Assembly: GCA_033763315.1 (NCBI GenBank)
Contig: JANRKS010000035.1
Span: 160,001 to 224,000 of the forward strand
Direction: 5' to 3'
DNA length: 64,000 nt
Source of the DNA: Deltaproteobacteria bacterium
GTDB lineage: Bacteria; Myxococcota_A; Polyangia; Fen-1088
Shown here one piece after another: positions 29,402-58,804 of this stretch; the stretch's first letter is position 1; every line of letters starts with the position of its first letter. A model generated the notes under the pieces. That model was not told the origin of the DNA. It was given only the letters and a program-made list of their open reading frames with translations, and made no database searches. A program made the translations under genes and the position numbers.

Positions 29402-29812
29402 GACAGCACCGGCCTGGCCGCCGATGCGGCCCCTTCATCTTGCACATGTTTTTCTTTCCCCGAGGCGGGCTGAAGGGGCTCGTGGCCACCCGACTCGGAC
29501 GTTGCGCTCGTCACCTGACGAGCGTGAGCAAAGTCTGCGCGCCTCACTACGACGCTGCAAGGGGGCGAGCCGCGCGACCTTGATCTTTCTCTGTCCACAG
29601 AAGTTGCGGTTCTGATTGATCTGGGGCACGCCCGGGGAGTAACCTGACGCGCCGTTTTGTCTCGGAATGTCGGCTACTTCCGGGACTGAGGCTTCGACGA
29701 GAGGAACCGAAGTGGAAGCCGCACCGCATCCAAGATCCAAGCTCCGTCCACCACCGGCCTGGCCGGGCGGCCTTTCTTGCCCTCGCTGGACTACGCCGAG
29801 GGGTCCGCATTC

Positions 29813-32800
29813 ATGAGCCCAGCGGATCTGAAGCCAGGGGTCGTGGTGCGTGGCCCGATGCTGCCGGAGCCCATTGAGGTTCTCGTTGTGTCCGTCCTCG
29901 CCGACATGGTCAAGGTGACCGGCGCTGGGCAGAAGACAGGCCAAGTCCATCAGCGCGTACTTCATCCAGACCAGCTCCGCCTCCTTCAAGCGACGCCCGA
30001 GAAGGAGCCCTTCGACGGCGATCCGTTGCACTTCAAGCTCGGCGTCGAGGCGGCGCGCCTCGGGCTGGCGTACGAATACGACCCGTACTTCTCGCTGTCG
30101 ATCGCGCGCGTCGATCCGCTGCCTCACCAGCTGGAGGCCGTTTACGACTACTTCTTGAAGCTACCCCGCATCCGATTCCTGCTCGCGGATGATCCTGGCG
30201 CGGGCAAGACGATCATGGCGGGCCTGCTTCTCAAGGAGCTGAAGGTCCGGGGGCTCGTGAAGCGGACGCTCATCGTTGCGCCCGCAAACCTCACGTTTCA
30301 GTGGCAACGCGAGCTGAAGGACAAGTTCCGCGAACAGTTCGATGTCATGCGCGGCGAGGTGCTGCGCACGCAGTACGGGCAGAATCCCTGGCAGGAAAGC
30401 AACCAGGTCGTCACCTCGGTTTCGTGGATCTCGCGCGTCGAAGACGCAAAGGAGAGCCTGCTGCGCTCGCAATGGGACCTCGTCATCGTCGACGAGGCTC
30501 ACAAGATGAGCGCGTACAGTGCCGACAAGAAGACGCTTGCCTTCCAAATCGGCGAGGCTCTGTCTCAGCGCACCGACCACTTCCTGCTGATGACGGCGAC
30601 ACCACACAAGGGTGATCCCGAGAACTTCCGTCTGTTCCTCAGCCTTCTCGACCGCGACGTTTACGGAGATGTGAAGAGCCTTGAGGAGGCTATGCGCCGC
30701 CACGAGGCGCCGTTCTATCTCCGCCGCTTGAAGGAAGCGCTCGTTGCATTTCCCGATCCGGAAACCGGCGAGGTCAAGAAGCTCTTCACGAACCGCGACG
30801 TGCGGACGACCAAGTTTGAACTCGACGGCGAAGAGTTCGACTTCTACGACGCTCTCACCCGGTACGTCGAGGACCAGTCAATCAAGGCCGCCGCCGCCGA
30901 GAACGTTCAGGCCAACATCCTGGGCTTCCAAATGGCGATGTTGCAGCGTCGCTTCGCCTCAAGCGTGTACGCCGTGCGCCGCAGCCTTGAGCGCATGCGG
31001 GACAAGCGAAGAAAGATCCTCGACGACCCAGAGGGTCATCGGCAGCACCTGATCGAGCGCAAGCTCCCCGATGACTTCGACGACCTGCCCGAGGACGAGC
31101 AGTCGAAGATCATGCAGAGCGCGGAGGAGGCGGTTCTCATCGTCGACCCAATCGCACTGCGCGAGGAAATCCAGCGCCTCGATAAGCTCGTCGACCTGGC
31201 GCGCGCTCTGGAGAAGCGCGAGGTCGAGTCCAAGCTCAACAAGCTGAAGCAGGTTCTTAACGAGCAGCAGGTCTTCAGTGACCCTCGAATGAAGCTGCTG
31301 GTGTTCACCGAACACAAGGACACGCTCGACTACCTCGCGGGCGACGGAAAGGACGGGCGCCCGCTGGGCAAGCTTCGTGAGTGGGGCCTCTCCTGCACGC
31401 AGATCCACGGCGGCATGCCCATTGGCGACCGCGACACACCCAATACCCGCATCTATGCCGAGCGCGAGTTCCGCGAGGACGCGCAGATACTCGTGGCCAC
31501 CGAGGCGGCGGGGGAAGGCATCAACCTCCAGTTCTGCTGGTTGATGATCAACTATGACATCCCGTGGAACCCGGTGCGGCTCGAACAGCGCATGGGCCGC
31601 ATCCACCGCTACGGCCAGCAGAAGGACTGCCTCATCTTCAATTTCGCTGCCATCAACACGCGTGAGGGCCGCGTACTTGAGAAGCTCCTGATGCGCCTTG
31701 CGGAGATTAAGGAGGAACTCGGCACCGACAAGGTCTTCGATGTTGTCGGTGAAATGCTTCCGTCGAATGCGCTGGAAAAGATGTTTCGCGAGATGTACGC
31801 GAAACGGCTCGATGTCACGGACATCTCCGACCGCATCGTGAAGGACATCGATCCCGAACGCTTCAAGCGCATTACGGGCTCGACGCTCGAAGGCCTTGCC
31901 AAGAAGGAACTGAATCTTTCAGCACTCGTAGGGAAATCGGTGGAAGCGAAGGAGCGGCGGTTGGTCCCCGAGGTAGTCGAGGACTTCTTCATCCACGCTG
32001 GGCCAGTCGCAGGCGTTCACCCGACCCCGGTGCGTGGAAAGGACCACGTGTTCAAGGTGGGCAAGGTGCCGAAGACGTTGAGCGCGATCGGTGAGAGGCT
32101 GGAACCCCGTTTCGGCAAGCTTGGCCGTGAATACCAGCGGGTTGTATTCGACAAACGTCTGCTGGGCGACGACGCAACCCTGGAATGGGTCACGCCAGGT
32201 CACCCGCTGTTCGAGGTGGTGCGCAGTGATGTGGCCGATCGGGTACAGGACGATCTCCGGCGCGGGGCGGTCCTGTGGGACTTGCACGCGAAGGCGCCGT
32301 ACCGACTGGACGTGTTCGCCGCTTCGATCAAGGACGGCCGGGGCAACACGCTGCACAAGAAGCTTTTCGTCGTCCGTGCCGACGCGGACGGAAAGCTGTC
32401 GGTACGCCAACCAACGCTCTTCCTCGATCTCATCGTCTCTGAGCGCGGCACGTCGGTGCCCACGCTACCGGGCCTTCCGGAACGCGACATCGTTGAGGGC
32501 TATCTGGTTCACAACGCGCTCACCCCTTTCCTCTCCGATGTGGCGAACCAGCGCACGCAAGAAAACTCCGTGGTTCGAAAGCACATCGAGATCTCGCTCA
32601 ACACGCTTATCGACAAACAGCAGATCAAACTTGGCGAACAGCTCGAACGGCGTGTCGAGGGTCAGGTCATCCCTGCCGTCGAAGGAAACATCAAGCAGGC
32701 CGAGGACCACTTGGACGAACTGAACGCTCGCCTTGAAAGCCGGCGCCAGGAACTGGAGATGGAGAGCCACTGCTCCATCGGTGATGTGCAGCATCTCGGG

Positions 32801-33250
32801 CGGGCGTGGGCGCTACCGCATCCCGAGCGCGAAGCGCCGAATATCGCGCCGATGGTGAGTGACCCGGAGATTGAGAAGATCGCCGTGCAGCTGGCCATGA
32901 AGCACGAGCGCGACAACGGCTGGGTCGTGGAGAGCGTGGAGAACGAGAACCGCGGCTACGATCTACTTTCGAAGCGCCCGCATCCGACGGAGCCTGGTGT
33001 GTTTGTACAGGCTCGCTTCATTGAGGTGAAGGGGCGCGCCGGGGTCGGGGAGGTGGCGCTTACGGCGAACGAGTACCGCACGGCTCAGCGCCTCGGCGAG
33101 GACTTCTGGCTTTACGTGGTGTTTGACTGCGCGACCGCGCCGAAGCTCAATGCGATTCAGAACCCCGCGAAACTCGGGTGGGAGCCCGTCGTGAAAGTCG
33201 AGCACTACCACGTGACGGCCAAGGCCATTCTGGAGGCCGCACGTGAGTGA
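29813..33250 (+). CDS. SNF2-family helicase with C-terminal DUF3883/NOV nuclease-like domain
   Basis: LLADDPGAGKT, DEAH, MTATPH, ATEAAGEGINLQ, NPVRLEQRMGRIHRYGQ; C-terminal GYDLLS..FIEVKG..LTANE. Confidence 0.92.
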   Translation: MSPADLKPGVVVRGPMLPEPIEVLVVSVLADMVKVTGAGQKTGQVHQRVLHPDQLRLLQATPEKEPFDGDPLHFKLGVEAARLGLAYEYDPYFSLSIARVDPLPHQLEAVYDYFLKLPRIRFLLADDPGAGKTIMAGLLLKELKVRGLVKRTLIVAPANLTFQWQRELKDKFREQFDVMRGEVLRTQYGQNPWQESNQVVTSVSWISRVEDAKESLLRSQWDLVIVDEAHKMSAYSADKKTLAFQIGEALSQRTDHFLLMTATPHKGDPENFRLFLSLLDRDVYGDVKSLEEAMRRHEAPFYLRRLKEALVAFPDPETGEVKKLFTNRDVRTTKFELDGEEFDFYDALTRYVEDQSIKAAAAENVQANILGFQMAMLQRRFASSVYAVRRSLERMRDKRRKILDDPEGHRQHLIERKLPDDFDDLPEDEQSKIMQSAEEAVLIVDPIALREEIQRLDKLVDLARALEKREVESKLNKLKQVLNEQQVFSDPRMKLLVFTEHKDTLDYLAGDGKDGRPLGKLREWGLSCTQIHGGMPIGDRDTPNTRIYAEREFREDAQILVATEAAGEGINLQFCWLMINYDIPWNPVRLEQRMGRIHRYGQQKDCLIFNFAAINTREGRVLEKLLMRLAEIKEELGTDKVFDVVGEMLPSNALEKMFREMYAKRLDVTDISDRIVKDIDPERFKRITGSTLEGLAKKELNLSALVGKSVEAKERRLVPEVVEDFFIHAGPVAGVHPTPVRGKDHVFKVGKVPKTLSAIGERLEPRFGKLGREYQRVVFDKRLLGDDATLEWVTPGHPLFEVVRSDVADRVQDDLRRGAVLWDLHAKAPYRLDVFAASIKDGRGNTLHKKLFVVRADADGKLSVRQPTLFLDLIVSERGTSVPTLPGLPERDIVEGYLVHNALTPFLSDVANQRTQENSVVRKHIEISLNTLIDKQQIKLGEQLERRVEGQVIPAVEGNIKQAEDHLDELNARLESRRQELEMESHCSIGDVQHLGRAWALPHPEREAPNIAPMVSDPEIEKIAVQLAMKHERDNGWVVESVENENRGYDLLSKRPHPTEPGVFVQARFIEVKGRAGVGEVALTANEYRTAQRLGEDFWLYVVFDCATAPKLNAIQNPAKLGWEPVVKVEHYHVTAKAILEAARE

Positions 33251-36200
33251 AGCACGGAAGTATCCGAAGCGGCTGATCGAGATCGACCTGCCGATCCGAC
33301 GGATCTCGGAGCATTCGCGCAGAGAGAAGTCGATCCGTCACGGACACATCTCGACGCTGCATATCTGGTGGGCAAGAAGGCCGCTCGGCGCCTGTCGCGC
33401 AGTTCTTTGCGCCGCGCTGTGGCCCGACCCGGCCGACCAGTTCTGCCCCGATGCGTTCCGCGTCTCCGCTTACGAGGCTCTTGCCAAGCTGAGTGCTGGC
33501 ATCGAGCGTGACCGTCCCGCCTTCGAGATCGTTGGACGCCACGCCAGCATTTGGCGCGGGTTTCAGCAGGGGAGTGTGCGTCTCGATGCCGGAGACGGAC
33601 TCATGCGTCTGCGCGATGCGCTGCTCCTCTTCATTGGCGAGTTTTCGAGTTGGAACGCTGCAACGGTGCCCCTTCTTCTCGAAACTGCACGGAGGATCAC
33701 CCGCGCCGCGCATACTTCCTTGCATGGTGCCCATGCCGACCTTCCGTCCGTGCTCGATCCTTTCGCCGGTGGAGGTTCGATTCCGCTTGAAGCGCTGCGT
33801 GTCGGGGCGGATGCAATAGCGAGCGACATCAATCCGATCCCCGTCCTTCTTAATCGCGTGGTTCTTGAGTTTGGATCGGATCGCCTGACTACGCTGCGTG
33901 ACACCTTCGCTAGCGCTGCGCGCCAAGTTGAAGAGCGTACGCGTAAGTTCCTCGCTCCTGCATTCGAAACTCGTGCAGGAGCCGCGCCCGTCGCGTACCT
34001 CTGGGCTCGCACGATTTTGTGCGAGGGCCCGGCTTGTGGGCTTGAGATTCCGATGCTTCGAACCCTCCGCCTTTCGAAGCACGGCAAGGCTTCATCGTGG
34101 CTTCGACTCACCCATGACGAGAAGGAGAGAGCACTCGTCATCACCGTCGAGCAACGGGAGTCTTCGACTGGCGCGGGCACAGTGAAGTCGGGCTCCGTCC
34201 TATGTCCCGCCTGCGGCTACACGACCAAGGGTGAGGCTGCGCGTGCTCAGCTTGCGGCGCGCAACGGCGGTTCGGCTGACGCTCGTATGGTCGCAGTGTT
34301 GGAACGCGACACTTCTGGCGTCAAACGGTTTCGAGCCCCCGAACAGGTCGATGCTCGTGCACACCAGGCTGCCGTCAAGCTCCTCGATCAACTCCGCGCA
34401 GATGCCGGGGGCCTTTCTACGGTGCCTGACGAACTGATTCCGACTGAGCGGCCTTCTCCCAATGCCAGGGGATTGTCCGCCGTAACGCGCGTGGGAATGC
34501 GAAGATTTGGAGATCTGTACACGCCCCGACAGGCGCTGGTCCTAGCGGCACTCGCCAAGGCCGTCCGCGAAGTCACCGAGGTGTATCGGGCCAGCGCGAC
34601 TGCCGATGCAGATATCCTCAACGTGCTGCTTGCCGCTGCGGTTAGTAAGCGGGCCGATTTTGGCAGTTCACTTTGTTCCTGGCGCCTCGGGGCCTCCTGC
34701 GTCCGAGGAACGTTCGCGCGCCAAGCCCTCGCCAACACCTGGGACTTTGGCGAGATGTACCCATTCGCTGGGAGCGCCGGCGACTGGGCTGAGGCGTGCG
34801 CTTTCATCGACAAGTTTCTCGGGCACTTGGTGGATTCGAAGCTCGCAACTGGCAGCGTGATTTCAGCGTCGGCGACCCACCATCCGCTGCCCGACGATAC
34901 TGTCGACGCATTGATCACGGACCCGCCGTACTACGACTCCGTGCCCTACGCAGACCTCTCCGACTACTTTTACGTGTGGCTCCGGCGCGCGTTGACCGGT
35001 CGCAACTCTCTTCCGGGCGCCGGGTCACCGAAGGACGGCGAGATCATCTGGAATCCCACGAGAAGCGTGGGGCAGCGCCCCAAGGACAAGCAGTTCTATG
35101 AAGAGCAAATGACGCTCGCGTTCCAGGAGGCGAGAAGAGTCACCAAGCCCGATGGTATCGCTGTCGTTGTATTCGCTCACAAGAGCACGGCGGGCTGGGA
35201 GGCTGTTCTTGAAGCTCTTCTGAAGGCCGGGTGGATTGCGACTGGTTCTTGGCCGCTCGACACAGAGCGCGCAGGGAGAACGAATGCTGTGGGGACTGCG
35301 TCCCTTGGTTCTTCCGTCCACATCGTATGCCGTCCGAGAGAGAGTGCGTCGGGAGCGGTTGTGGAAGGCGAAGTGGGCTCCTGGCGAGATGTGCTTCAGG
35401 AGCTCCCCCAGCGAATTCACGAGTGGATGCCTCGCCTCTCGCAAGAAGGCATCGTGGGCGCAGACGCTATCTTTGCCTGCCTCGGCCCCGCCTTAGAGGT
35501 CTTTTCTCGGTTTTCGCGCGTCGAGAAGTCGAACGGCGACGTTGTGGGTCTCCGCGACTACCTTGAGCATGTTTGGGCCGCTGTTTCTCGCGAGGCGCTC
35601 TCGATGATCTTTAGCGCCGCTGATGCTTCTGGGCTTGAAGCCGATGCTCGAATCACTGCGATTTGGCTGTGGACTCTTGCTGATCCTACAGACAGCGGGG
35701 CAAAGAGCGAGGCGGGCGATTCAGACGAGGATGACGAGGTGGACGACGATGGCGATGGCGCCGAAGCGGCCGGCTTTGTTCTCGATTTCGATGCAGCTCG
35801 AAAAATCGCGCAAGGTCTTGGTGCCCGGCTCGAAGAACTGGAGGCAGTAGTCGAGGTTCAAAAGGACAAGGCACGCCTTCTCCCCGTGGCCGAGCGTTCG
35901 AAGTTCCTGTTCGGAAAGAGCGTGGGCGGACCTTCGGCCAAACGTCCGGGGAAGAAGAAGCAAATGACCTTGTTCGCGGAGATCGACGAAGCCGCTGAGG
36001 CCCAGGGATGGGGAGAGGTGGGGGCTCCCCGAGCGGGGACGACCACCTTGGACCGCGTCCACCAAGCGATGCTGCTCTTCGGCGCAGGCCGCGGTGAGGC
36101 GCTGAAGCGCTTCATCGTCGAAGAGGGCGTCGGCAAGCAGCCGCAGTTTTGGAAGCTCGCCCAGTCGCTCTCCGCGCTCTACCCGATTGGCACCGACGAG

Positions 36201-36254
36201 AAGCGCTGGGTTGACGGTTTCCTCGCGCGCAAGAAGGGCTTGGGTTTCGGATGA
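33243..36254 (+). CDS. DUF1156 adenine-specific DNA methyltransferase, copy 1
   Basis: LHIWWARRP, motif I DPFAGGGSIP, Zn ribbon CEGPAC/CPAC, catalytic TDPPYY, VFAHKS. Confidence 0.92.
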   Translation: MSEARKYPKRLIEIDLPIRRISEHSRREKSIRHGHISTLHIWWARRPLGACRAVLCAALWPDPADQFCPDAFRVSAYEALAKLSAGIERDRPAFEIVGRHASIWRGFQQGSVRLDAGDGLMRLRDALLLFIGEFSSWNAATVPLLLETARRITRAAHTSLHGAHADLPSVLDPFAGGGSIPLEALRVGADAIASDINPIPVLLNRVVLEFGSDRLTTLRDTFASAARQVEERTRKFLAPAFETRAGAAPVAYLWARTILCEGPACGLEIPMLRTLRLSKHGKASSWLRLTHDEKERALVITVEQRESSTGAGTVKSGSVLCPACGYTTKGEAARAQLAARNGGSADARMVAVLERDTSGVKRFRAPEQVDARAHQAAVKLLDQLRADAGGLSTVPDELIPTERPSPNARGLSAVTRVGMRRFGDLYTPRQALVLAALAKAVREVTEVYRASATADADILNVLLAAAVSKRADFGSSLCSWRLGASCVRGTFARQALANTWDFGEMYPFAGSAGDWAEACAFIDKFLGHLVDSKLATGSVISASATHHPLPDDTVDALITDPPYYDSVPYADLSDYFYVWLRRALTGRNSLPGAGSPKDGEIIWNPTRSVGQRPKDKQFYEEQMTLAFQEARRVTKPDGIAVVVFAHKSTAGWEAVLEALLKAGWIATGSWPLDTERAGRTNAVGTASLGSSVHIVCRPRESASGAVVEGEVGSWRDVLQELPQRIHEWMPRLSQEGIVGADAIFACLGPALEVFSRFSRVEKSNGDVVGLRDYLEHVWAAVSREALSMIFSAADASGLEADARITAIWLWTLADPTDSGAKSEAGDSDEDDEVDDDGDGAEAAGFVLDFDAARKIAQGLGARLEELEAVVEVQKDKARLLPVAERSKFLFGKSVGGPSAKRPGKKKQMTLFAEIDEAAEAQGWGEVGAPRAGTTTLDRVHQAMLLFGAGRGEALKRFIVEEGVGKQPQFWKLAQSLSALYPIGTDEKRWVDGFLARKKGLGFG

Positions 36255-39906: not shown

Positions 39907-40095
39907 CTTCCGGAGTTTTTCTCGTTCCGGCGCGCAAGACGGTGGCCCCTGCCGGGCGATCTGCGATCGGGCTGCCCGAAAGAGCTGGACGTTTCCACTT
40001 CAGCCGCTTCACGGCTCTGGGAGCTGATCTGCGCCGACGGGGCTGCGTGATCCAGGCGGTATCAGTTGATGCTGTCGTGATGGTCCACGCCCCGC

Positions 40096-40193
40096 ATCCG
40101 GCAGCGAATCCGGCAAGTGCCGCTGGATACTTCGGAGCGACCCGCGGAGCCCGAGAACCCGGCAACGAATCCGGCAACGGTTGCCGGATTCTC
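40096..40193. repeat. array of 12-bp-period ATCCGGCA repeats plus a 25-bp palindrome
   Basis: ATCCGGCA at 40096, 40108, 40169 and ACCCGGCA at 40157; GAATCCGGCAAC-G-GTTGCCGGATTC at 40167-40191. Confidence 0.8.
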
Positions 40194-40285
40194 AGAGGCA
40201 GATACCACCGCGATTCCGCATTCCTCGGATTCAACTGCACCATCCTGGCGAGAACGTCCCTCGACCCTCTGGAGTCCGGCGTGTG

Positions 40286-43192
40286 ATGCTTGCGACCGAG
40301 ACATACCCGCGCCGCCTCATCGAGGTCGATCTCCCGATCGCCACGGTATCGGGGCACGCGCGGGATGGGCGATCAGTCCATCATGGGCACATCACCGCGA
40401 TCCACATCTGGTGGGCGCGCAAGCCCCTTCCCTCCTGCCGAGCGGCCCTTCTCGCTGCCTCGTTGATCGACCCGCTCGACCCAGGGTGCCCGGCTGCGTT
40501 CAAGCAGCAGGCACGAAACGTTTTGGGCCAGCTCTACGGGATGGACCTCGAAGCAGACGGCGAGGCCCTCCGCCGCGGGCTCCTGCGGCTCGTCGCGGAT
40601 TTCGCGGCGTGGCAGCGCGCAACCGACCCGGCATTCCGGCATGCCGCCCGCGCTCTTGCCTCGTCGGCGCACGCAGCCCTTTTTGAGACGGGTCCGTCGT
40701 TCCTCGCCGATCCGTTCTGCGGGGGCGGCTCGATACCGCTCGAAGGCCTGCGGCTCGGGGCCACGTCGTACGCATCCGACCTCAACCCGGTCGCGACACT
40801 CATCAGCAAGGTCACGCTCGAATACGTGCAACGCTTCGGTGAAACGCTATTCACTGAGGTAGAGCGGTGGGGCGCCGAGATCGCCCGAGAGGTGAACGAG
40901 GATCTACGGCACCTCTATCCGGTCGTCGATGGCCAGCAGCCCGTCGCGTACATCTCGTTTCGCCGCATCCAGTGTGAAGGACCTAGGTGTGGCGCCGACG
41001 TGGTGCTAACGAGCAAGTTCCACCTTTCGCGCCGTGGCGACCGCTCCGTCGGCTTGCGGCTTGTAGGCTGGGATGGTCCGACGCCCCGGTTCGAGATCAC
41101 CGAAGGCAACCTGCGCGCATTCCCCGACCCGACCGTTCGTCGTGGTGCCGCCACGTGCCTCAAGTGCGGCTACACGATCCCCGTCGAGCACGTGCGCGAG
41201 CAGCTCTCTTCCCGCGCGGGCGGAGCCGCCTCTTCGCTCCTCGTCGCGGTCGCCGTCGATGGGTCCTCGGGCGAGCGTCTGTTCCGCGCGCCCGCCGACG
41301 TTGACTACGCCGCCTTGCTGACCGCTTCCAAATCCCTGGCTCAACTCGAAACCGCCGAAGGTGATGGGCTCTCCGAACTACCCAATGAGTCGCTTCCGCC
41401 GATCGGAACGCTCGGATTCCGCGTTCAACGCTACGGAATGGTCCGGTGGCGCGACCTCTTTACGCCACGCCAGCTCCTGACCATCACCACCCTGGTTCGC
41501 CTCGTGCGGGAGGCGATGCCCAATGATCGCGCGCCAAACGGCCTCGGGGTCGCCGTCCGTTCGTGCCTCGCGCTTGCCGTCGATCGACTTTGCGACTACC
41601 AAAACACCGGCTGCTCATGGAACCCGAGCGGTTCCGCTCTGCCGCACCTCTTCACCCGGCAGGCGCTTCCGATCATTTGGGACTACGGCGAGGCAAACCC
41701 GCTCGCCTCGTCTTCGGGCTCGTGGGCGGGCGCCGTCGAGCACGTTGTCCGAGGTCTCCGCAACGCACATGTCACGGCCCCTGGTTCGCCACAGGGCGAA
41801 CACGGCGCCGACGTAGGCCTGGCATCCGCGAGTCACCATCCGCTGCCCACGGACTGCGCGCACATCTTGATAACCGACCCGCCGTATTACGACGCCATCC
41901 CGTACGGAGACCTCTCTGACTTCTTCTACGTGTGGCTGCGCCGCATGCTCGCAGCCGATCACCCTGAGCTGTTCAAGACAACGCTGGTGCCGCGCGAGAA
42001 CGAGGCCATCGTTAATCCCGTCGCCGGCAAGGACCGAGGCTACTACCGAAGGATCATGACGGCTGCGCTCGCAGAGGCGCGCCGTGTGACGAGGCCCGAC
42101 GGCGTTGGCGTGATCATCTTCGCCCACAAGTCGACGAGTGGCTGGGAGGATCTTCTCGCTGCGATGATCGACGCGGGCTGGATCATCACCGCGTCGTGGC
42201 CCATCGACACCGAGAACGCTTCGCGCCTGCGGGCGCGGAACTCCGCGGTGCTGGGCTCGTCGATTCACCTCGTGTGCCGACCGCGCGAACACCGCGACGG
42301 CCGCCTCATCACGGACACGGTTGGCGACTGGCGCGACATCCTCGCTGCGCTTCCGAAACGCATCTCCGAATGGATGCCTCGACTTGCCCGCGAAGGAATC
42401 GTCGGAGCCGATGCCATTTTCGCGTGCCTGGGTCCCGCGCTGGAGCTGTTCTCTCGCTTCGCCCGCGTCGAGAAGGTGTCAGGCGCGGTTGTGCCACTTG
42501 AAGAGTACCTCGAACAGGTTTGGGCGGCCGTTTCACGCGAAGCACTTTCCATGATCTTCAACGAGGCCGAAACCGCGGGACTCGAAGAGGACGCGCGCAT
42601 CACTGCGATGTGGCTGTGGACGCTTGCGGGCGCAGCTGCGGCCTCGTCCGAAGGCACAGAGGATGCGGACTCGATCGATGAGGGGGCCGGCGGTGACAGC
42701 GCGATGGCGGGCTTCAGCCTTGAGTACGACGCTGCCCGCAAGATCGCCCAGGGGCTCGGCGCGCGCCTCGAAGCGCTCAACCAGGTGGTGGAGGTCAAGG
42801 GAGCAACCGCGCGCCTCGTCGCGGTCGCCGAGCGCGCAAATGTCCTATTCGGTGGAACCGACGCGGTCCAAGCACCCAGGCGCGCATCGAAAAAGCGACA
42901 GATGTCGCTGTTCGCCGAGCTAGACGAGGCCGCCAGGTCCCAGGGTTGGGGCGATGTCGGCACCCCAAGGGCCGGAGCCACGACGCTCGACCGCGTCCAT
43001 CAGGCAATGCTGCTCTTCGCTTCCGGCCGAGGAGAGGCCCTCAAGCGATTCCTCGTGGACGAGGGCGTCGGTCAGGGCCCGCTGTTCTGGAAACTCGCCC
43101 AGTCGTTGTCAGCACTATACCCCAGCGGCTCCGACGAGAAGCGCTGGGTCGACGGCGTCCTCGCGCGGAAGAAGGGATTCGGTTTCGGATGA
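40286..43192 (+). CDS. DUF1156 adenine-specific DNA methyltransferase, copy 2
   Basis: IHIWWARKP, DPFCGGGSIP, CEGPRC/CLKC, TDPPYY, IFAHKS; colinear with copy 1; start ATG 40286 (or GTG 40283) after GGAG. Confidence 0.92.
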   Translation: MLATETYPRRLIEVDLPIATVSGHARDGRSVHHGHITAIHIWWARKPLPSCRAALLAASLIDPLDPGCPAAFKQQARNVLGQLYGMDLEADGEALRRGLLRLVADFAAWQRATDPAFRHAARALASSAHAALFETGPSFLADPFCGGGSIPLEGLRLGATSYASDLNPVATLISKVTLEYVQRFGETLFTEVERWGAEIAREVNEDLRHLYPVVDGQQPVAYISFRRIQCEGPRCGADVVLTSKFHLSRRGDRSVGLRLVGWDGPTPRFEITEGNLRAFPDPTVRRGAATCLKCGYTIPVEHVREQLSSRAGGAASSLLVAVAVDGSSGERLFRAPADVDYAALLTASKSLAQLETAEGDGLSELPNESLPPIGTLGFRVQRYGMVRWRDLFTPRQLLTITTLVRLVREAMPNDRAPNGLGVAVRSCLALAVDRLCDYQNTGCSWNPSGSALPHLFTRQALPIIWDYGEANPLASSSGSWAGAVEHVVRGLRNAHVTAPGSPQGEHGADVGLASASHHPLPTDCAHILITDPPYYDAIPYGDLSDFFYVWLRRMLAADHPELFKTTLVPRENEAIVNPVAGKDRGYYRRIMTAALAEARRVTRPDGVGVIIFAHKSTSGWEDLLAAMIDAGWIITASWPIDTENASRLRARNSAVLGSSIHLVCRPREHRDGRLITDTVGDWRDILAALPKRISEWMPRLAREGIVGADAIFACLGPALELFSRFARVEKVSGAVVPLEEYLEQVWAAVSREALSMIFNEAETAGLEEDARITAMWLWTLAGAAAASSEGTEDADSIDEGAGGDSAMAGFSLEYDAARKIAQGLGARLEALNQVVEVKGATARLVAVAERANVLFGGTDAVQAPRRASKKRQMSLFAELDEAARSQGWGDVGTPRAGATTLDRVHQAMLLFASGRGEALKRFLVDEGVGQGPLFWKLAQSLSALYPSGSDEKRWVDGVLARKKGFGFG

Positions 43193-43869
43193 ATCATTCA
43201 GACCTCGCGAACGCTATCGTTCATTGGCTCGAATACGAGCGGCTCTGCGGGCGGTCAAACCTTCTGTCCGAGGCCGCCCTCAAGGCACCAGTAGGTGAGT
43301 TCTTGCTCAGCACACAGGGGCATTCACTTGAGGTCGAGGTGCCCTATCCGAAAGAAATGCAGCCCGCGAAAGGACGACCGAGGTCCGTAGATTTCTGCCT
43401 TCGGCGAGCGGGTGGCGGGCGAGTATGGACGAGCATCGTCGAGTCCAAGTGGGCCAACGGCAAACGGGACTTGTCCCAGGAGGTCTTCGACGACCTGCTA
43501 CGTCTCGAGCACGTCCGTCGATCCTCACAGGTGGAGCCATTCGAGCGAGTATTCCTGCTCGCGGGGCAATCGAAGGCCATCGTCCAGGACATTTTCGAGC
43601 GGGAGGCGAACGGCGCCGACGGGCGAGTCCGGCTGTTCGAGGGGGTGCTTCCCCAGACTGGTTCTGCCGGCGTCCCGGTGGCCAACGCCCCGGCCGGCAT
43701 CGTTAAGTATTGGCATGAGGCCGCAATAAACATCGGCCTCAAAGGTCTTCCGCTGACCATGAAGACGAAGCTTGTTGCTATGGCGAGTGCCGGAACCTTC
43801 GATTGTTGGGTGTGGCGCATCTCAAGCGCTCGAAATCGGAAAATCTGGGAGTTCGGAGAACAGAAATGA
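43189..43869 (+). CDS. putative PD-(D/E)XK nuclease
   Basis: Start ATG 43189 (ATGA overlap); EVPYP...SVDF...IVESKW; DDLLRL. Confidence 0.6.
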   Translation: MNHSDLANAIVHWLEYERLCGRSNLLSEAALKAPVGEFLLSTQGHSLEVEVPYPKEMQPAKGRPRSVDFCLRRAGGGRVWTSIVESKWANGKRDLSQEVFDDLLRLEHVRRSSQVEPFERVFLLAGQSKAIVQDIFEREANGADGRVRLFEGVLPQTGSAGVPVANAPAGIVKYWHEAAINIGLKGLPLTMKTKLVAMASAGTFDCWVWRISSARNRKIWEFGEQK

Positions 43870-46679
43870 TGAAACCCTGGTACAAGGTCGTGACCCCACG
43901 CGAGGACCTGCGCGATGGCAAGCCCCTCGACGCGTCGGAGTTCGCGGTCCACCTCGACCACGTTCGCGACGGGCGCGCGCCCGCCGTGTACCAGAATCCG
44001 GCCGAGTTCTTCGAACGAACTTTCCTCACGAAGAATCTCAGCGAACTTTCCGGGCAGGTCGTCCGCCGGCTTTCCGGGGTGAAGGTCGAGACATCAGCCA
44101 TCTTCAACCTCTCGACGCAGTTCGGTGGTGGTAAGACCCACTCGCTGACGTTGCTCTTCCATCTCGCGCAGCACGGAGATGCCGCGAAGTCCTGGAAAGG
44201 CGTGAACGGCATCCTTCAGGACGCAGGCGTCACCAGCGTACCGAAGGCGGCGACGGCCATCTTCGTGGGCACGGAGTTCGATTCCATCAGCGGCCGCGGT
44301 GGCAATGACGGAACGCCGCTTCGAAAAACGCCCTGGGGCGAGATCGCCTACCAGCTCGGTGGCGAGGATGGCTTCAAGCTCGTCGCCGAACATGAAAGGG
44401 AGCTGACTGCGCCGGGCGGCGACGTTATCGAGCGCATGTTGCCCAAGGGCAGACCGACGCTGATCCTTTTCGACGAGCTGATGAACTACGTAAACCGCAG
44501 CCGAAAGAGCGGCCTTGCGGCTCAACTTTACACGTTCTTGCACAATCTGTCCGAAGTTGCGCGCGCTCGGGACAACGTCGTTCTCGCGGTCTCGATCCCC
44601 GCCTCGGAACTGGAGATGACGACCGAGGATCACCAGGACTTCGATCGCCTCAAGAAGATGCTCGATCGCCTCGGCAAGGCCATCATCATGTCAGCCGAGA
44701 CCGAGACCTCGGAGATCATCCGGAGACGGCTATTCGAGTGGCAAGGGTTGCCAAAGGACGCCATCTCGACCATCGAGGAATACGAGCACTGGTTGCTCGT
44801 CAACAAGCAACAAGTCCCGAGTTGGTTCCCCGTCGAGAACGCGCGCGAGGCGTTGAAGGCGTCGTACCCTTTCCACCCATCACTGCTCTCGGTTTTTGAG
44901 CGCAAGTGGCAGGGTCTTCCGCGTTTTCAGCAGACGCGCGGCGTGCTGCGCCTCCTCGCGTTGTGGGTGTCGAAGGCGTACAGCGAAGGCTACAGGGGAG
45001 CGCACAAAGATCCTCTCATATCTCTAGGGACTGCCCCTCTCGAAGATCCACTATTCCGTTCCGCGCTCTTCGAGCAGCTTGGTGAAGCGCGCCTTGAGCC
45101 GGCTGTGACCACGGACATTGCCGGCAAAGACCATGCGCACGCTTTGCGCCTCGACACCGAGGCGACGCCCGAGCTGAAGAAGGCACGTCTGCACCGGAAG
45201 GTCGCGACCACAATCCTCTTTGAATCGAATGGTGGCCAACAGCGCGGAGAGGCAACGCTGCCCGAGGTGCGACTAGCCGTAGCCGAGCCTGAACTCGACA
45301 TCGGCAACGTCGAGCAGTGTCTCGAAGCCCTGACCGACCACTGCTACTTCCTGGCCGCCGAGAAGAATCGGTACCGCTTCAGCTTCCAACCGAATCTCAA
45401 CAAGCTCCTTGCCGACCGCCGCGCGAGCGTTAGCGCGGCCTTGATCGAAGAGGTCATGCGCAAGGAGATCCAGAAGGTGTTCTCAGCGGGGAGTGGCGTC
45501 GAGCGCGTGTACTTCCCAAAGAAAAGCAGCGAGGTCCCGGACCGCCCGGTGCTCACATTGGCCGTGCTCGCGCCCGAGAACCCGGCGCCCGAACCCGCCA
45601 CCAAGAGCCTCATCGCTCAAATGACCACCGAGAGCGGATCGTCTTCGCGAACATTCAAGAGCGCCCTCATCTGGGCGGTTCCAGAGGATGCGTCGGCACT
45701 TCTGGAAGAAGCCCGTAAGGTGCTCGCGTGGAAGGACATCGACGCGGACTCGGGCGAGTTGAAGCTAGACGAGACGCAGCAGCGCCAACTCACCGAGAAC
45801 ACAAAGCGCGCCGAGCGCGATCTTCGTGAGGCGGTCTGGCGGGCTTACAAGAATGTCTTCTTGCTCGCCGACGACAACTCGATCCGGAAGATTGACCTCG
45901 GTCTCGTCCACTCCAGTGCCGCGACCTCGCTCGTCGAGTTGATCCTCTCGCGCCTCAAGCAGGAGGACATCGTCGTCGAGGGTGTGAGCCCGAACTTTCT
46001 CACGCGCTACTGGCCACCTGCACTCCCCGAGTGGAGCACGAAGTCGGTGCGGGACGCATTCTATGCCTCGCCGAAGTTCCCGAGGCTCCTGAGGCCAGAT
46101 GCGGTCAAGGAAACGATCGCGCGCGGCCTCGACACCGGAACGGTCGCGTATGTTGGCAAGGCACACGATGGTGGCTACGAGCCGTTCGTGTACAGGCGTT
46201 CCCTTGGATTGGGCGACATCGAGATCGCCGACGATGTGTACCTGATAGTCCGCGACCGCGCGGAGGAGTACCTGGCCAAGAAGGCGGCGCCCCCGGCCGC
46301 CACGACCGCGACGCTGGCCGTTTCGGACGGCGTCGCACAGCCCGTGCCGCGCACGTCGACCGGTGTGCCCCAGAGCACCACGACGGATATCCCACGCGGC
46401 GTCTCGCCAACGACCACGACTTCAGGATCTTCGGAACCTCCGCTCGGAGCCGAGATCGCGGGCTTTCAATGGAGTGGGGAGATTTCGCCGCAGAAGTGGA
46501 TGAATTTCTACACGAAAGTCCTATCGCGCTTCGCGACCAGCGGTGGTCTGAAACTCGCCGTGTCGGTCGACGTAGAACCGCCCGGCGGCACCACCGTCTC
46601 GAAGGTGGAAGAAACGAAGGTGGCGCTGCGCGAGTTGGGTCTGGCGGAGGACATCACGTTCAAGCGGGGGCGGGGATGA
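43866..46679 (+). CDS. DUF499 AAA+ ATPase
   Basis: KPWYKVVTPREDL, FFERTF, Walker A TQFGGGKTH, Walker B ILFDEL, SYPFHP, FQQTRGVLRLLA. Confidence 0.92.
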   Translation: MMKPWYKVVTPREDLRDGKPLDASEFAVHLDHVRDGRAPAVYQNPAEFFERTFLTKNLSELSGQVVRRLSGVKVETSAIFNLSTQFGGGKTHSLTLLFHLAQHGDAAKSWKGVNGILQDAGVTSVPKAATAIFVGTEFDSISGRGGNDGTPLRKTPWGEIAYQLGGEDGFKLVAEHERELTAPGGDVIERMLPKGRPTLILFDELMNYVNRSRKSGLAAQLYTFLHNLSEVARARDNVVLAVSIPASELEMTTEDHQDFDRLKKMLDRLGKAIIMSAETETSEIIRRRLFEWQGLPKDAISTIEEYEHWLLVNKQQVPSWFPVENAREALKASYPFHPSLLSVFERKWQGLPRFQQTRGVLRLLALWVSKAYSEGYRGAHKDPLISLGTAPLEDPLFRSALFEQLGEARLEPAVTTDIAGKDHAHALRLDTEATPELKKARLHRKVATTILFESNGGQQRGEATLPEVRLAVAEPELDIGNVEQCLEALTDHCYFLAAEKNRYRFSFQPNLNKLLADRRASVSAALIEEVMRKEIQKVFSAGSGVERVYFPKKSSEVPDRPVLTLAVLAPENPAPEPATKSLIAQMTTESGSSSRTFKSALIWAVPEDASALLEEARKVLAWKDIDADSGELKLDETQQRQLTENTKRAERDLREAVWRAYKNVFLLADDNSIRKIDLGLVHSSAATSLVELILSRLKQEDIVVEGVSPNFLTRYWPPALPEWSTKSVRDAFYASPKFPRLLRPDAVKETIARGLDTGTVAYVGKAHDGGYEPFVYRRSLGLGDIEIADDVYLIVRDRAEEYLAKKAAPPAATTATLAVSDGVAQPVPRTSTGVPQSTTTDIPRGVSPTTTTSGSSEPPLGAEIAGFQWSGEISPQKWMNFYTKVLSRFATSGGLKLAVSVDVEPPGGTTVSKVEETKVALRELGLAEDITFKRGRG

Positions 46680-46781
46680 CGTGAAGTTCCCTCTCCTCCT
46701 CCAGTTCGACTGGGCCGCCCGAAGCGTCGCCTCCCGGGCACGTGCCACCGGTTTGGCTGATCACGTCGCCAACCTCCAATC

Positions 46782-47996
46782 ATGATCGCGCTCATGCCTT
46801 CGACCCAACAATGGCTCGACGCTTTGATTGTCCCTCGCCGCGTGAGGGTCGACTCATCGGTTGGGCTTGCCAAAAAAGTCGCTGGCATGGGTGTCTCAAA
46901 GAGCTTCAAGGGAACACCCAAGAAGGCCGTGGCGCTGCCGAGTGACACGTTCCCCAACAGAGTTCACGTTCGCCCAGCTGAACTCCTGTACTACGTGGCA
47001 AAGGCTACGTTGCCCCAAATCGAGAATCTTTGCGATCTGTCGTCAACGTCAGCGCTGCTTCGGTACATTTGGGCATTCGAACCGAAACCGTCGGTCCACA
47101 ACCTGAAACTGAGTAAGGAAGCGCTGGGTATCGATTTCCACCAGAAGATGGTGATGTCGGACGAGATTGGGTGCGGAATGGGATGCCTGTTTGTCGAGCG
47201 CTATCTCAGGGCGTGCAATCCTGTGCCGATCAGCATGGCCCTTGCAGATTCAGCGAACGCTTTTGGTATATCGAAAAAGTATTCGACCTCACCTGACTTC
47301 ATTTTTGCCGAGCCCCGACCAGACGGGAGGTATGTGGTGTTGGAGTGCAAAGGAAGTCGATCAGGGCGCGCCAACTCAGAGCGACAATTGCGCCGCGGGC
47401 TTGAGCAGGTGCCTTCAATCGTTTTCTCGTCTCCACCCGCGCCACTAGCAGTAGTCATGGCGACCAGCCTTTCGAAGGAACGCACGGAAGTGCTGGTTCT
47501 TGACCCAGAGGGCCGCCCGACCCACGTACGCGATCGCACCGAATTTGCCACGACCGTGAGCGCCCTCGGCAGGGAAAGTCTCATCAGGTTCGCTGGAGCA
47601 ATTGGCCTCGCCCGCAGGAAAGCACGAGAACGCGAAAGCAAGCAGCCTGACTTCGGTCTAGAATTCGAGGGACCGCTGTCGCCACCTGCGGAGAAACCAT
47701 CTCCCATGGGCATTCCACTCGTCGGATTCCGGCAATCTGCCCAGATTGGCGATGTTCGAGTCGAGCTCTTCCGGGGCATCTCGACGGCGCAGTTCCGAGC
47801 GCTTGAAACGGATGACATCGAACGTTCGCGAGCAGCTGCAAACCAACTTTTTGGGGCCGCGAGCGCCTTGCGACGCGGGGAAGAGTTCCCGGGACCAGTA
47901 GTGGTTGCGCGGGGCTCCGGCGAGCGGGAGCAGGGAATTGTCTCAGTTGTCGGCCCCGACGGCACGGCGGTTCTGATTGAGGCGTCTTCCGAGTGA
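46782..47996 (+). CDS. putative PD-(D/E)XK nuclease
   Basis: SDEIGCG, SPDFIF...VVLECKG, GLEQ. Confidence 0.6.
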   Translation: MIALMPSTQQWLDALIVPRRVRVDSSVGLAKKVAGMGVSKSFKGTPKKAVALPSDTFPNRVHVRPAELLYYVAKATLPQIENLCDLSSTSALLRYIWAFEPKPSVHNLKLSKEALGIDFHQKMVMSDEIGCGMGCLFVERYLRACNPVPISMALADSANAFGISKKYSTSPDFIFAEPRPDGRYVVLECKGSRSGRANSERQLRRGLEQVPSIVFSSPPAPLAVVMATSLSKERTEVLVLDPEGRPTHVRDRTEFATTVSALGRESLIRFAGAIGLARRKARERESKQPDFGLEFEGPLSPPAEKPSPMGIPLVGFRQSAQIGDVRVELFRGISTAQFRALETDDIERSRAAANQLFGAASALRRGEEFPGPVVVARGSGEREQGIVSVVGPDGTAVLIEASSE

Positions 47997-48064
47997 CCCT
48001 GACTCATGTTGGAGCCCTGGGCGTGGGCCCCATTGTCAGCGGGCACTGCGCGCGTGGCTCAAAT

Positions 48065-48343: not shown

Positions 48344-48364
48344 CTTTTTCTCCTTATCCGACAA

Positions 48365-50229: not shown

Positions 50230-50233
50230 TCCC

Positions 50234-55130: not shown

Positions 55131-55139
55131 AGGTTCATC

Positions 55140-58802: not shown

Positions 58803-58804
58803 GG

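What the first reader, a model, noticed from the sequence alone, without database searches (positions are those of the whole stretch)
29813..47996. SNF2 / DUF1156 / DUF499 system with two paralogous methylases differing in predicted recognition loops
Seen: gene order helicase-nuclease, MTase1, gajAB, MTase2, nuclease, DUF499 ATPase, nuclease. The two MTases are colinear, both keep motif I and DPPY, and have near-identical C-termini (EKRWVDGFLARKKGLGFG vs EKRWVDGVLARKKGFGFG). They differ in internal loops: PTERPSPNARGLSAV vs PPIGTLGFRV; WRLGASCVRGT vs WNPSGSALPHL; TERAGRTNAVGT vs TENASRLRARNS. Known: DUF499, DUF1156 and SNF2 genes co-occur as a poorly characterised RM/BREX-related predicted defence module, usually with one methylase as far as I recall. 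Inference: one ATPase/helicase core serves two interchangeable specificity subunits through the conserved C-terminal domain, giving dual-motif restriction.
Basis: partly seen in the sequence, partly recalled or inferred. Interest (0 to 1): 0.78.

Follow-up and report, generated by a model that had tools for sequence, protein, structure and literature searches.

The report
Hma defence locus with two methylases
This is a known kind of anti-phage locus (Hma, also called a BREX-related system) in an undescribed form that carries two DNA methylases, one kept constant among relatives and one swapped like a cassette, with a separate Gabija defence system nested between them.

Summary
Window 29813-46679 is an Hma / "Type-1 BREX-related" system. 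It has an SNF2 helicase-nuclease (HmaA), two intact DUF1156 adenine methylases (49% identical) and a DUF499 ATPase (HmaC). A complete Gabija pair is embedded between the methylases.

Embedding of Gabija-type modules in such systems is already described. The two-methylase layout is not chance. It recurs in 7 of 71 related loci, all from one clade and mostly Myxococcota.

- **Downstream methylase:** it forms one clade and diverges in step with HmaA and HmaC.
- **Upstream methylase:** it is replaced as a cassette. Two loci are 98-100% identical in DNA except for codons ~20-890 of that gene.
- **Catalytic motifs:** both copies keep them.

Best reading: one restriction core uses a constant and an exchangeable specificity methylase, marking two motifs. 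This is inferred. The precedent is type V BREX with two independent methylases. Docking through the C-terminus is untested.

I found no description of this variant. One Hma survey excluded loci with duplicated hma genes. Verdict: new variant of a known kind, moderate interest.

The parts
29813..33250 (+). hmaA: SNF2 helicase with a C-terminal NOV_C (PD-(D/E)XK-type) nuclease domain. It is the presumed restriction effector.
   Evidence: Pfam SNF2-rel_dom 1e-17, Helicase_C 1.2e-19, NOV_C 1e-21. PADLOC HmaA 6.3e-184 over residues 17-1118. ATG at 29813. 90-92% identical to HmaA of L001-L005.
33243..36254 (+). hmaB1 ('slot 1'): DUF1156 N6-adenine methylase, the exchangeable copy. Its start overlaps the hmaA stop by 8 nt.
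   Evidence: DUF1156 5e-21. HmaB 3e-111. Motifs DPFAGGG and DPPY. GC3 of the gene body is 0.57-0.66 (one 300-nt bin 0.79), against 0.74 for the first and 0.84 for the last 300 nt. Only 55-59% identical to slot 1 of loci whose HmaA is 90-92% identical.
36251..38059 (+). gajA: OLD-type ABC ATPase with a TOPRIM nuclease (Gabija). An embedded cassette.
   Evidence: AAA_15 1e-30 and OLD-like_TOPRIM 4e-18. PADLOC GajA 2.9e-121, full length. Absent at this position in all 71 related loci.
38056..39906 (+). gajB: UvrD-type helicase (Gabija).
   Evidence: UvrD-helicase 5e-53 and UvrD_C 3e-35. PADLOC GajB 1.5e-120.
40106..40191 (.). Two palindromic elements in the 380-nt gap upstream of hmaB2. The second is a perfect 12+12 palindrome at 40167-40191.
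   Evidence: the repeat finder I4, D1 and I1. Unique in the window, with 0 of 100 shuffles giving a match. The RNA fold has z = -2.76. An analogous palindrome pair with different inner bases lies upstream of slot 2 in L002-L004.
40286..43192 (+). hmaB2 ('slot 2'): DUF1156 N6-adenine methylase, the constant copy inherited with the backbone.
   Evidence: DUF1156 6e-13. HmaB 7e-100. Motifs DPFCGGG and DPPY. GC3 0.77, like hmaA and hmaC. The slot-2 proteins form one clade with SH-aLRT 99. 83-91% identical where HmaA is 85-95% identical.
43189..43869 (+). 226-aa gene in the slot between methylase and ATPase. A probable PD-(D/E)XK-type nuclease, with 4-nt overlaps to both neighbours.
   Evidence: No Pfam, PADLOC or NCBIfam hit. 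The family has 8 proteins, plus L017 at the same position. D68, E85 and K87 are invariant. pLDDT 90.5. Fold matches are weak only.
43866..46679 (+). hmaC: DUF499 AAA+ (ORC/Cdc6-like) ATPase.
   Evidence: DUF499 5.9e-24. PADLOC HmaC 1.4e-127. 87-89% identical to HmaC of L001, L002, L003 and L005.
46782..47996 (+). 404-aa gene 102 nt after hmaC. It carries a PD...ExK motif. Whether it belongs to the system is uncertain.
   Evidence: No homologue in the 71 loci. GC3 0.63. 448 representative relatives. P171, D172, E188 and K190 are invariant. pLDDT 89.3. No significant fold match.

Best explanation
The locus is an Hma (helicase-methylase-ATPase) system, also called a Type-1 DUF499-centred BREX-related system. 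It belongs to a sub-clade, mostly from Myxococcota, that carries two DUF1156 methylases in place of the usual one.

**Shown**
- The core is hmaA, hmaB1, hmaB2, a small gene and hmaC.
- A complete Gabija pair is embedded between the two methylase genes. Relatives carry other cassettes at that junction or at the hmaA|hmaB1 junction.
- The downstream methylase is inherited with the backbone, and its target-recognition region is conserved.
- The upstream methylase behaves like the single methylase of ordinary Hma loci. It is replaced wholesale between otherwise near-identical loci. The breakpoints lie just inside the conserved 5' end and about 100 codons before the 3' end.

**Inferred**
- Both methylases are active and mark different motifs on host DNA.
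- Each also serves as a recognition module for the same HmaC / HmaA restriction core, so DNA lacking either mark is attacked by the HmaA nuclease.
- The constant copy would give a clade-wide mark, and the exchangeable copy a strain-specific one.
- Gabija, and perhaps the two small PD-(D/E)XK-like genes, act as independent or back-up effectors.
For: **Family assignment.** Supported.

**Recurrence.** Two full methylases occur in 7 of 71 related loci (L001-L006, L021). That is 6 of the 46 loci holding the whole hmaA-hmaC interval, plus L004, whose contig ends before hmaC. L006 has the two genes abutting with no insert.

**Tree of 61 methylases.** Slot 2 is one clade (SH-aLRT 99) with short branches. 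Slot 1 needs at least 3 changes and mixes with single-copy methylases.

**Identity between loci.**
- L003 against L004: HmaA 100%, slot 2 99%, slot 1 61%.
- Their DNA is 93-100% identical (mostly 98-100%) in 150-nt windows, except across ~5450-8076. That stretch is slot-1 codons ~20-890.
- For locus pairs with HmaA at least 85% identical: slot 2 is 83-99% identical (15 pairs); slot 1 is 55-67% (15 pairs); single-copy methylases are 45-75% (9 pairs).
- Column conservation across window-B1 residues 401-640: 0.87-0.94 for slot 2 against 0.45-0.61 for slot 1.

**Catalytic motifs.** DPPY is present in 16 of 16 copies. Motif I is DPFAGGG in 8 of 8 slot-1 copies and DPFCGGG in 7 of 8 slot-2 copies; L006 has DPFCGGA.

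**Each type can stand alone.** L023 (HmaA 89%, HmaC 84% identical to the window's) has only a slot-1-type methylase. L025, sister of the slot-2 clade, has a single methylase.

**Composition.** GC3 is 0.80 / 0.77 / 0.785 for hmaA / hmaB2 / hmaC. It is 0.67 / 0.645 / 0.67 for hmaB1 / gajA / gajB.

**Literature.**
- HmaA alone defended against T4 and needs its nuclease (abstract and sections 15 and 18 of PMC11232893).
- Embedding in Hma is common: 931 of 1485 systems (passages of bioRxiv 10.1101/2024.01.29.577857).
- OLD / Gabija modules inside BR systems are described (section 35 of PMC12839542).
- Type V BREX of Haloarcula hispanica has two methylases, 53% identical. They mark two motifs independently, and deleting either one abolished protection (passages of bioRxiv 10.64898/2026.04.28.721311).
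Against: - No methylome, expression or defence data exist for this locus or its relatives. Activity of either methylase is inferred from motifs alone.
- In the only tested Hma system, phage T4 grown on an HmaB-overexpressing host was restricted by HmaA just like ordinary T4. HmaA also defended without HmaB or HmaC (section 18 of PMC11232893). So a restriction-modification logic for Hma is itself unproven.
- The body of hmaB1 has the same low GC3 as gajAB. It may therefore have arrived together with Gabija.
- A methylase whose recognition region stays fixed across families (slot 2) is unusual for a specificity subunit. It could instead point to a structural or regulatory role.
- The related loci were chosen by similarity to hmaB2. 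The frequency of the layout among all Hma systems is therefore not measured.
Confidence: 0.6

Rival explanations
1. Only the downstream, vertically inherited methylase (hmaB2) works with HmaA and HmaC. On this reading hmaB1 is just another embedded cassette: a stand-alone methylase that came in by horizontal transfer, possibly together with Gabija, and does not feed into Hma restriction.
For: - hmaB2 diverges in step with the backbone, while hmaB1 is swapped.
- The hmaB1 body has GC3 of about 0.6-0.66, like gajA and gajB at 0.645 and 0.67, against a backbone of 0.77-0.80.
- Hma loci are known hotspots for embedded genes.
Against: - Slot 1 sits where the sole methylase of ordinary loci sits, overlapping or abutting the hmaA stop. 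The gap is -7 to +18 nt in 14 loci.
- Slot 1 shows the same uncoupling from the backbone as those sole methylases.
- The close relative L023 has only a slot-1-type methylase.
- Slot 1 is present in all 7 dual loci, none of which has Gabija.
- Its last 300 nt are backbone-like: 79-83% identical to slot 1 of L001-L005.
Confidence: 0.2
2. hmaB1 is the system's real specificity methylase. hmaB2 is a 'frozen' paralogue that has taken on another role, such as scaffold of the complex, regulator, or reader of DNA. Any methylation by it would not set a second restriction specificity.
For: - The slot-2 recognition region is conserved at 0.87-0.94, whereas specificity subunits in this family normally vary (0.32-0.58 in single-copy loci).
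- Slot 2 has its own upstream palindromic elements wherever an insert separates it from slot 1.
- The slot-2 clade has a diagnostic Cys in motif I.
Against: - Catalytic motifs are kept: DPPY in 8 of 8 slot-2 copies, and an intact motif I in 7 of 8.
- L025, sister of the slot-2 clade, is the only methylase of its locus.
- In type V BREX both paralogous methylases are active and both are needed for defence.
Confidence: 0.13
3. The two methylases act on one asymmetric site, one per strand or as a heterodimer. Some type IIS systems have two methylases that work this way (the type IIS comparison is recalled, not checked here).
For: The two genes are tandem paralogues in one operon. In 3 loci (L001, L005, L006) they abut.
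Against: Slot 1 is exchanged while slot 2 stays 98-99% identical in L002, L003 and L004. Partners recognising the same site would have to change together.
Confidence: 0.04
4. The layout is an accident: two partial Hma systems fused by rearrangement, or an assembly artefact.
For: The GC3 difference between hmaB1-gajAB and the rest of the locus.
Against: - The same order, hmaA - methylase - methylase - (small gene) - hmaC, is found in 7 independent records. One of them is a complete genome of a cultured strain, L005.
- The window holds a single hmaA and a single hmaC.
- Genes are coupled by 4-8 nt overlaps.
Confidence: 0.03

Closest known systems
Hma system (PADLOC; HmaA, HmaB, HmaC), the same as the Type-1 DUF499-centred BREX-related (BR) system of Rakesh & Krishnan 2026 (PMC12839542)
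   Same: All three core families are present, in the usual order and on one strand. They are an SNF2 helicase with a C-terminal PD-(D/E)XK (NOV_C) nuclease, a DUF1156 N6-adenine methylase with a nested recognition domain, and a DUF499 ATPase. Foreign defence genes are embedded between the hma genes, as reported for 62.7-66.5% of Hma systems.
   Different: - There are two full-length methylases in place of one. One is inherited with the backbone and one is exchanged as a cassette.
- The main text of PMC12839542 has no hit for 'two MTase', 'second MTase', 'tandem MTase' or 'paralog'. PMC11232893 has none for 'two hmaB', 'duplicat', 'paralog' or 'two methyl'.
- The Hma survey in bioRxiv 10.1101/2024.01.29.577857 kept only loci in which each hma gene occurs once.
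- The supplement of PMC12839542 could not be read, so such loci may be listed there.
Type V BREX of Haloarcula hispanica (bioRxiv 10.64898/2026.04.28.721311)
   Same: One defence locus encodes two paralogous methylases (53% identical there, 49% here). They mark two different motifs independently, and both are needed for protection. This is the closest functional precedent for the proposed mechanism.
   Different: - The families differ. That system has PglX-type BrxX, two BrxC ATPases, BrxZ (PglZ), BrxA and BrxB, and its methylation is N4-cytosine.
- The present locus has DUF1156 methylases, one DUF499 ATPase, no PglZ, and a nuclease fused to the helicase.
- That paper reports no constant-versus-exchangeable asymmetry in the passages I read.
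Gabija (GajA / GajB)
   Same: The embedded pair at 36251-39906 matches GajA and GajB models over their full length.
   Different: It sits inside another system's operon, coupled by 4-nt overlaps. Gabija-type (OLD/TOPRIM) modules inside BREX and BR systems are already described as back-up effectors.
Type I restriction-modification specificity (hsdS) exchange (recalled from general knowledge, not tested)
   Same: Specificity varies between otherwise conserved loci through recombination that uses conserved flanking segments.
   Different: Here almost the whole ~1000-aa methylase is replaced, not a recognition domain of a separate S subunit. No invertase and no silent cassettes were seen in the loci examined.

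Membership tests
Hma / Type-1 BR system | SNF2-family helicase carrying a C-terminal PD-(D/E)XK (NOV_C / DUF3883-type) nuclease | tested here: met
   SNF2-rel_dom, Helicase_C and NOV_C (residues 1032-1126) match. HmaA model 6.3e-184.
Hma / Type-1 BR system | DUF1156 N6-adenine methylase | tested here: met
   There are two copies. DUF1156 scores 5e-21 and 6e-13, and HmaB 3e-111 and 7e-100. Motif I and DPPY are present in both.
Hma / Type-1 BR system | DUF499 AAA+ ATPase in the same operon | tested here: met
   DUF499 5.9e-24. HmaC 1.4e-127 over residues 22-925 of the ORF.
Hma / Type-1 BR system | Each core gene present once. This was a curation rule in one survey, not a definition of the family. 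| tested here: not met
   Two hmaB genes are present.
Hma / Type-1 BR system | Anti-phage activity, and methylation-dependent discrimination of self from foreign DNA | not testable with these tools
   Only HmaA of Halomonas meridiana has been tested, against T4. No methylation-dependent effect was seen there.
Type-2 BR system | Stand-alone DUF3780 gene, and an HKD (PLD) nuclease on the helicase | tested here: not met
   Pfam gave no DUF3780 hit for any of the 8 genes. The helicase has NOV_C and no PLD domain.
Type-3 BR system / BREX | PglZ (and an inactive STAND protein) within the locus | tested here: not met
   No PglZ match among the 8 genes. A separate BREX locus lies further downstream, starting at 52970.
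Gabija | GajA (ABC ATPase plus TOPRIM) next to GajB (UvrD-type helicase) | tested here: met
   GajA 2.9e-121 over residues 3-594 and GajB 1.5e-120 over residues 7-611. The Pfam domains agree.
PD-(D/E)XK nucleases (the 226-aa and 404-aa genes) | Restriction-endonuclease-like fold with a D ... (D/E)xK active site | tested here: inconclusive
   - The motif residues are invariant in both families.
- Foldseek against the PDB found nothing at E <= 0.001 for either protein.
- For the 226-aa protein, Atlas structure leads point to DpnII, McrC and PDDEXK_9, with TM 0.40-0.49 by query.
- For the 404-aa protein, only weak leads appeared.

The most novel reading that the evidence does not exclude
The dual-methylase Hma clade may be a two-tier self-marking system.
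- One methylase would write a mark shared by a whole clade of myxobacteria.
- The other would write a strain-specific mark. It would be renewed by homologous recombination that uses the conserved first ~20 and last ~100 codons of the gene as arms.
- Both would aim the same HmaC / HmaA restriction core.

The constant copy would keep the cell protected and defended while the variable one is being replaced. That would explain why a second, 'frozen' methylase is maintained.
Probability: 0.3. Interest if true: 0.7.

Novelty: new variant of a known kind. Interest (0 to 1): 0.55.

Why it matters
Whether Hma / BR systems work by methylation at all is open. In the only experimental study, HmaA alone defended against T4, and no effect of HmaB on that defence was seen.

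A clade with two methylases offers a natural experiment. One copy is constant and one is swapped between near-identical loci.
- Strains such as those behind L002, L003 and L004 should share one methylation motif and differ in another.
- Each motif could then be linked to restriction.

The result also shows that surveys requiring each hma gene to occur once miss a recurrent architecture. Finally, it points to the conserved gene ends as recombination boundaries for exchanging specificity.

Tried and rejected
- **Complex prediction.** I ran HmaC (937 aa, alignment A3) with the last 63 residues of HmaB2 (alignment A4, residues 906-968). The result was no verdict (score 0.00, controls not run). It says nothing for or against docking.
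- **Recent gene conversion between the two C-termini.** Rejected. Third-position identity among identical residues is only 0.26-0.53 over the last 300 codons. The last 300 nt of slot 1 and slot 2 are no more alike within a locus (76-82% in the window and L001-L005; 54-60% in L006 and L021) than between loci.
- **L023's single methylase as a slot-1 / slot-2 chimera.** Not supported. Its last 300 nt are 84-85% identical to slot-1 ends of L001-L005, against 78-81% to slot-2 ends.
- **Homology between the window's 226-aa gene and the 197-aa family that fills the same slot in 19 loci.** None found: hhalign probability 0.2. That family also has no homologue anywhere in the window. It has no Pfam or NCBIfam hit and no PDB sequence match (best E 1.1).
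- **Fold searches of both small proteins against the PDB.** Nothing at E <= 0.001.
- **Promoter and terminator scan of 29300-48400.** One promoter-like site and 15 terminator-like sites, at or below what shuffles give. Uninformative for this GC-rich DNA.
- **The palindrome pattern in the other loci.** No exact match. The analogous elements in L002-L004 differ in their inner bases.
- **Plasmid records.** 214 records matched, all below 60% identity. The one locus inspected, on a Planktothrix plasmid, has a single methylase.
- **Supplement of PMC12839542.** Unreadable here.
- **Not searched.** Eight metagenome contigs seem to carry both methylase types, judged only by equal contig lengths. They could not be inspected.

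Full report
**What is there.** The + strand of window 29813-47996 carries eight tightly packed genes.
- hmaA (29813-33250) matches SNF2, Helicase_C and NOV_C. It hits the PADLOC HmaA model at 6e-184.
- hmaB1 (33243-36254) and hmaB2 (40286-43192) both match DUF1156 and the HmaB models, at 3e-111 and 7e-100.
- gajA (36251-38059) and gajB (38056-39906) match GajA and GajB over their full length.
- hmaC (43866-46679) matches DUF499 and HmaC at 1e-127.
- Two genes have no family hit: a 226-aa gene (43189-43869) wedged between hmaB2 and hmaC, and a 404-aa gene (46782-47996) after hmaC.
- Overlaps of 4-8 nt join hmaA-hmaB1-gajA-gajB and hmaB2-226aa-hmaC. A 380-nt gap holding two palindromes separates the two blocks.

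**The observation.** The two methylases are colinear and 49% identical. Both keep motif I and DPPY. But the proteins are not near-copies that differ in a few loops.
- Identity is 22-59% in 50-column windows over residues ~80-640 (67% in the window spanning DPPY). It rises to 72-84% around residues 711-785 and in the last ~100.
- Synonymous third positions are close to saturated throughout.
- They are therefore old paralogues. The shared C-terminus reflects protein-level constraint, not recent conversion.

**What it is called.** This gene set is the Hma system of PADLOC; I saw the naming paper PMC8565338 only as a search listing. It is also the "Type-1 DUF499-centred BREX-related system" of PMC12839542. 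Of that paper I read sections 29, 33, 35 (part 1) and 39, plus passages. In Halomonas meridiana, HmaA alone defended against T4 through its nuclease, and no effect of HmaB was seen (PMC11232893: abstract, sections 15 and 18).

Foreign defence genes nested between hma genes are well documented.
- 66.5% of systems in that paper have them.
- 931 of 1485 systems have them in bioRxiv 10.1101/2024.01.29.577857 (passages).
- OLD / Gabija modules inside BREX and BR loci are described as back-up effectors.

So Gabija here is an embedded, separate system and not a component of Hma.

**The two-methylase layout recurs.** A scan of species-representative genomes with hmaB2 returned 71 loci. I mapped the window's eight proteins onto them with tblastn.
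- 46 loci hold the whole interval from the end of hmaA to the start of hmaC.
- Of these, 34 have one full methylase, 6 have a fragmented one, and 6 have two (L001, L002, L003, L005, L006, L021).
- L004 also has two, but its contig ends before hmaC.
- The seven dual loci are Myxococcota records, including the complete genome of Archangium minus Cbm 6, plus one "Proteobacteria" MAG.
- They are exactly the loci whose matched methylase is at least 68% identical to hmaB2 and that also have upstream sequence. L026 (63%) starts at the methylase, so its state is unknown.

The inserts differ from locus to locus.
- L006 has none; the two genes abut.
- L001 and L005 carry an ATPase-TOPRIM gene (PADLOC HEC-04, 4e-44) between hmaA and slot 1.
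- L002-L004 carry a deaminase / HATPase_c_4 / HTH gene between the two methylases.
- L021 carries a UPF0175 / DUF3368 pair at the same place.
- The window carries Gabija there.

**The two slots behave differently.**
- In a tree of 61 methylases, the downstream (slot 2) proteins form one clade (SH-aLRT 99) with short branches. The upstream (slot 1) proteins have long branches, need at least three changes, and mix with single-copy methylases of other phyla (quick search, LG+G4).
- L003 and L004 are 100% identical in HmaA and 99% in slot 2, but 61% in slot 1.
- Their DNA is 93-100% identical (mostly 98-100%) in 150-nt windows, except from ~5450 to ~8076. That stretch is slot-1 codons ~20-890. The last ~290 nt of the gene are again 98-99% identical.
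- In locus pairs with HmaA at least 85% identical, slot 2 is 83-99% identical (15 pairs) and slot 1 55-67% (15 pairs). The sole methylase of ordinary loci is 45-75% identical (9 pairs).
- So slot 1 behaves like the normal Hma methylase, and slot 2 is the unusual, 'frozen' one.
- The slot-2 recognition region (window-B1 residues 401-640) has column conservation of 0.87-0.94, against 0.45-0.61 for slot 1.

The window fits this pattern.
- GC3 is 0.80, 0.77 and 0.785 for hmaA, hmaB2 and hmaC. It is 0.67 for hmaB1, whose first and last 300 nt are backbone-like at 0.74 and 0.84.
- The window aligns with relatives through hmaA and ~190 nt into hmaB1, and then the alignment breaks.
- The last 300 nt of hmaB1 are 79-83% identical to slot-1 ends of L001-L005.

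**History.** In the HmaA tree, the window and L001-L005 form a clade (99). The single-methylase locus L023 is its sister (100), and the dual loci L021 and L006 lie further out. The dual state is therefore clustered but needs at least two changes. The L023 methylase belongs to the slot-1 group and ends like slot 1, so it most simply lost slot 2. L025, sister to the slot-2 clade, has a single methylase. Each type can thus be the only methylase of a locus.

**Mechanism.**
- *Shown:* architecture, recurrence, cassette exchange of slot 1, co-inheritance of slot 2, and intact motifs in both.
- *Inferred:* both are active and mark different motifs, and each directs the HmaC / HmaA core.

Independent exchange of slot 1 argues against the two enzymes sharing one site. 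The closest precedent is type V BREX of Haloarcula hispanica. There, BrxX1 and BrxX2 (53% identical) methylate two motifs independently, and deleting either one abolished protection (passages of bioRxiv 10.64898/2026.04.28.721311). Against a simple restriction-modification logic stands the Halomonas result noted above. It is the most conserved part of the whole family and it is also where recombination ends.

**The small genes.**
- The 226-aa protein belongs to a family of eight proteins (the window's own among them), plus one in locus L017 at the same position. It has an invariant D68 / E85-x-K87 and a confident model (pLDDT 90.5). No PDB match reaches E <= 0.001; the best leads are PD-(D/E)XK proteins.
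- In 19 related loci the same slot holds an unrelated 197-aa family of unknown function. It includes all dual loci that reach this slot except L021, and it is absent from the window.
- A Planktothrix plasmid has small endonuclease-annotated genes in this slot.
- The 404-aa protein has 448 representative relatives and an invariant PD ... ExK motif. It has no significant fold match and no homologue in the related loci. Its membership in the system is doubtful.

**Novelty and limits.**
- I found no description of a dual-methylase Hma / BR subtype. Term searches inside the two key papers gave nothing, and only four distinct papers in the library mention DUF1156.
- The Hma embedding survey kept only loci with each hma gene once.
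- The supplement of PMC12839542 could not be read, and bioRxiv supplements are closed, so such loci may be listed there.
- The 71 loci were chosen by similarity to hmaB2, so the overall frequency is unknown.
Eight metagenome contigs seem to carry both types, judged by equal contig lengths, and remain unchecked.
- Verdict: a known system with known embedding, in a new and recurrent two-methylase variant that makes the role of methylation in Hma directly testable.

Noticed in passing
window 52970-63999 (+): A separate BREX locus lies here: BrxE (52970-53710), BrxA, BrxB, BrxC (55140-58802) and a PglX-type methylase that runs off the window end (60673-63999). A Schlafen AlbA_2 / HATPase_c_4 / HTH gene (58805-60493) is embedded in it. 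The window therefore holds two BREX-family systems plus Gabija.
   Followed up: partly
window 22065-27117 (-): A family-A DNA polymerase with a 3'-5' exonuclease domain sits next to a 1057-aa DUF3854 / DUF927 (primase-helicase-like) protein. This suggests the defence genes sit on or beside a mobile element. No integrase or tRNA search was done.
   Followed up: no
window 40106-40191; L002-L004 about 9870-9965: Paired palindromes lie just upstream of the downstream methylase. In the window there is a perfect 12+12 palindrome at 40167-40191 and a weaker copy 61 nt before it. L002-L004 have an analogous pair with the same outer bases but different, still complementary, inner bases. The elements are absent where the two methylase genes abut. 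They could be an operator, a hairpin or a cassette boundary.
   Followed up: partly
L001 12886-13479, L002 12895-13488, L023 12916-13509 and 16 more loci: A conserved 197-aa protein family lies between the methylase and HmaC in 19 loci. E73, D78, E97-L-E99-N100 and W112 are invariant. It has no Pfam, NCBIfam or PDB sequence match. It may be an unrecognised fourth Hma gene. In the window it is replaced by an unrelated gene.
   Followed up: partly
L003 8371-9864; L001 5563-7032; L021 9211-9973: Relatives carry other embedded cassettes: a cytidine-deaminase / HATPase_c_4 / HTH fusion (L002-L004), an ATPase-TOPRIM HEC-04 homologue (L001, L005), and a UPF0175 / DUF3368 toxin-antitoxin-like pair (L021).
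   Followed up: partly
L012 7277-11704; L032 7233-12124; L008 10001-11704: In these loci the methylase matches in two pieces, an N-terminal ~430 residues and a C-terminal ~570 residues. In L012 and L032 the pieces are about 1.45-1.6 kb apart. The methylase may be split or interrupted. L012 also shows many frameshift-like breaks in hmaA.
   Followed up: no
window 48365-50286 (-): Two adjacent genes with metallo-beta-lactamase-fold similarity match the PADLOC candidate PDC-M48B, the better one at 1e-40. They may be a further defence candidate next to the locus.
   Followed up: no
protein hits: Some DUF1156 methylases of 1200-1420 aa carry extra domains: PF01661 (Macro), PF02481 or PF08719.
   Followed up: no
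methylase motif I, window about 40706-40726 and relatives: All 8 slot-2 methylases have Cys in motif I (DPFCGG-). All 8 slot-1 copies and 40 of 45 single-copy methylases have DPFAGGG. This is a simple marker for the 'frozen' clade.
   Followed up: yes
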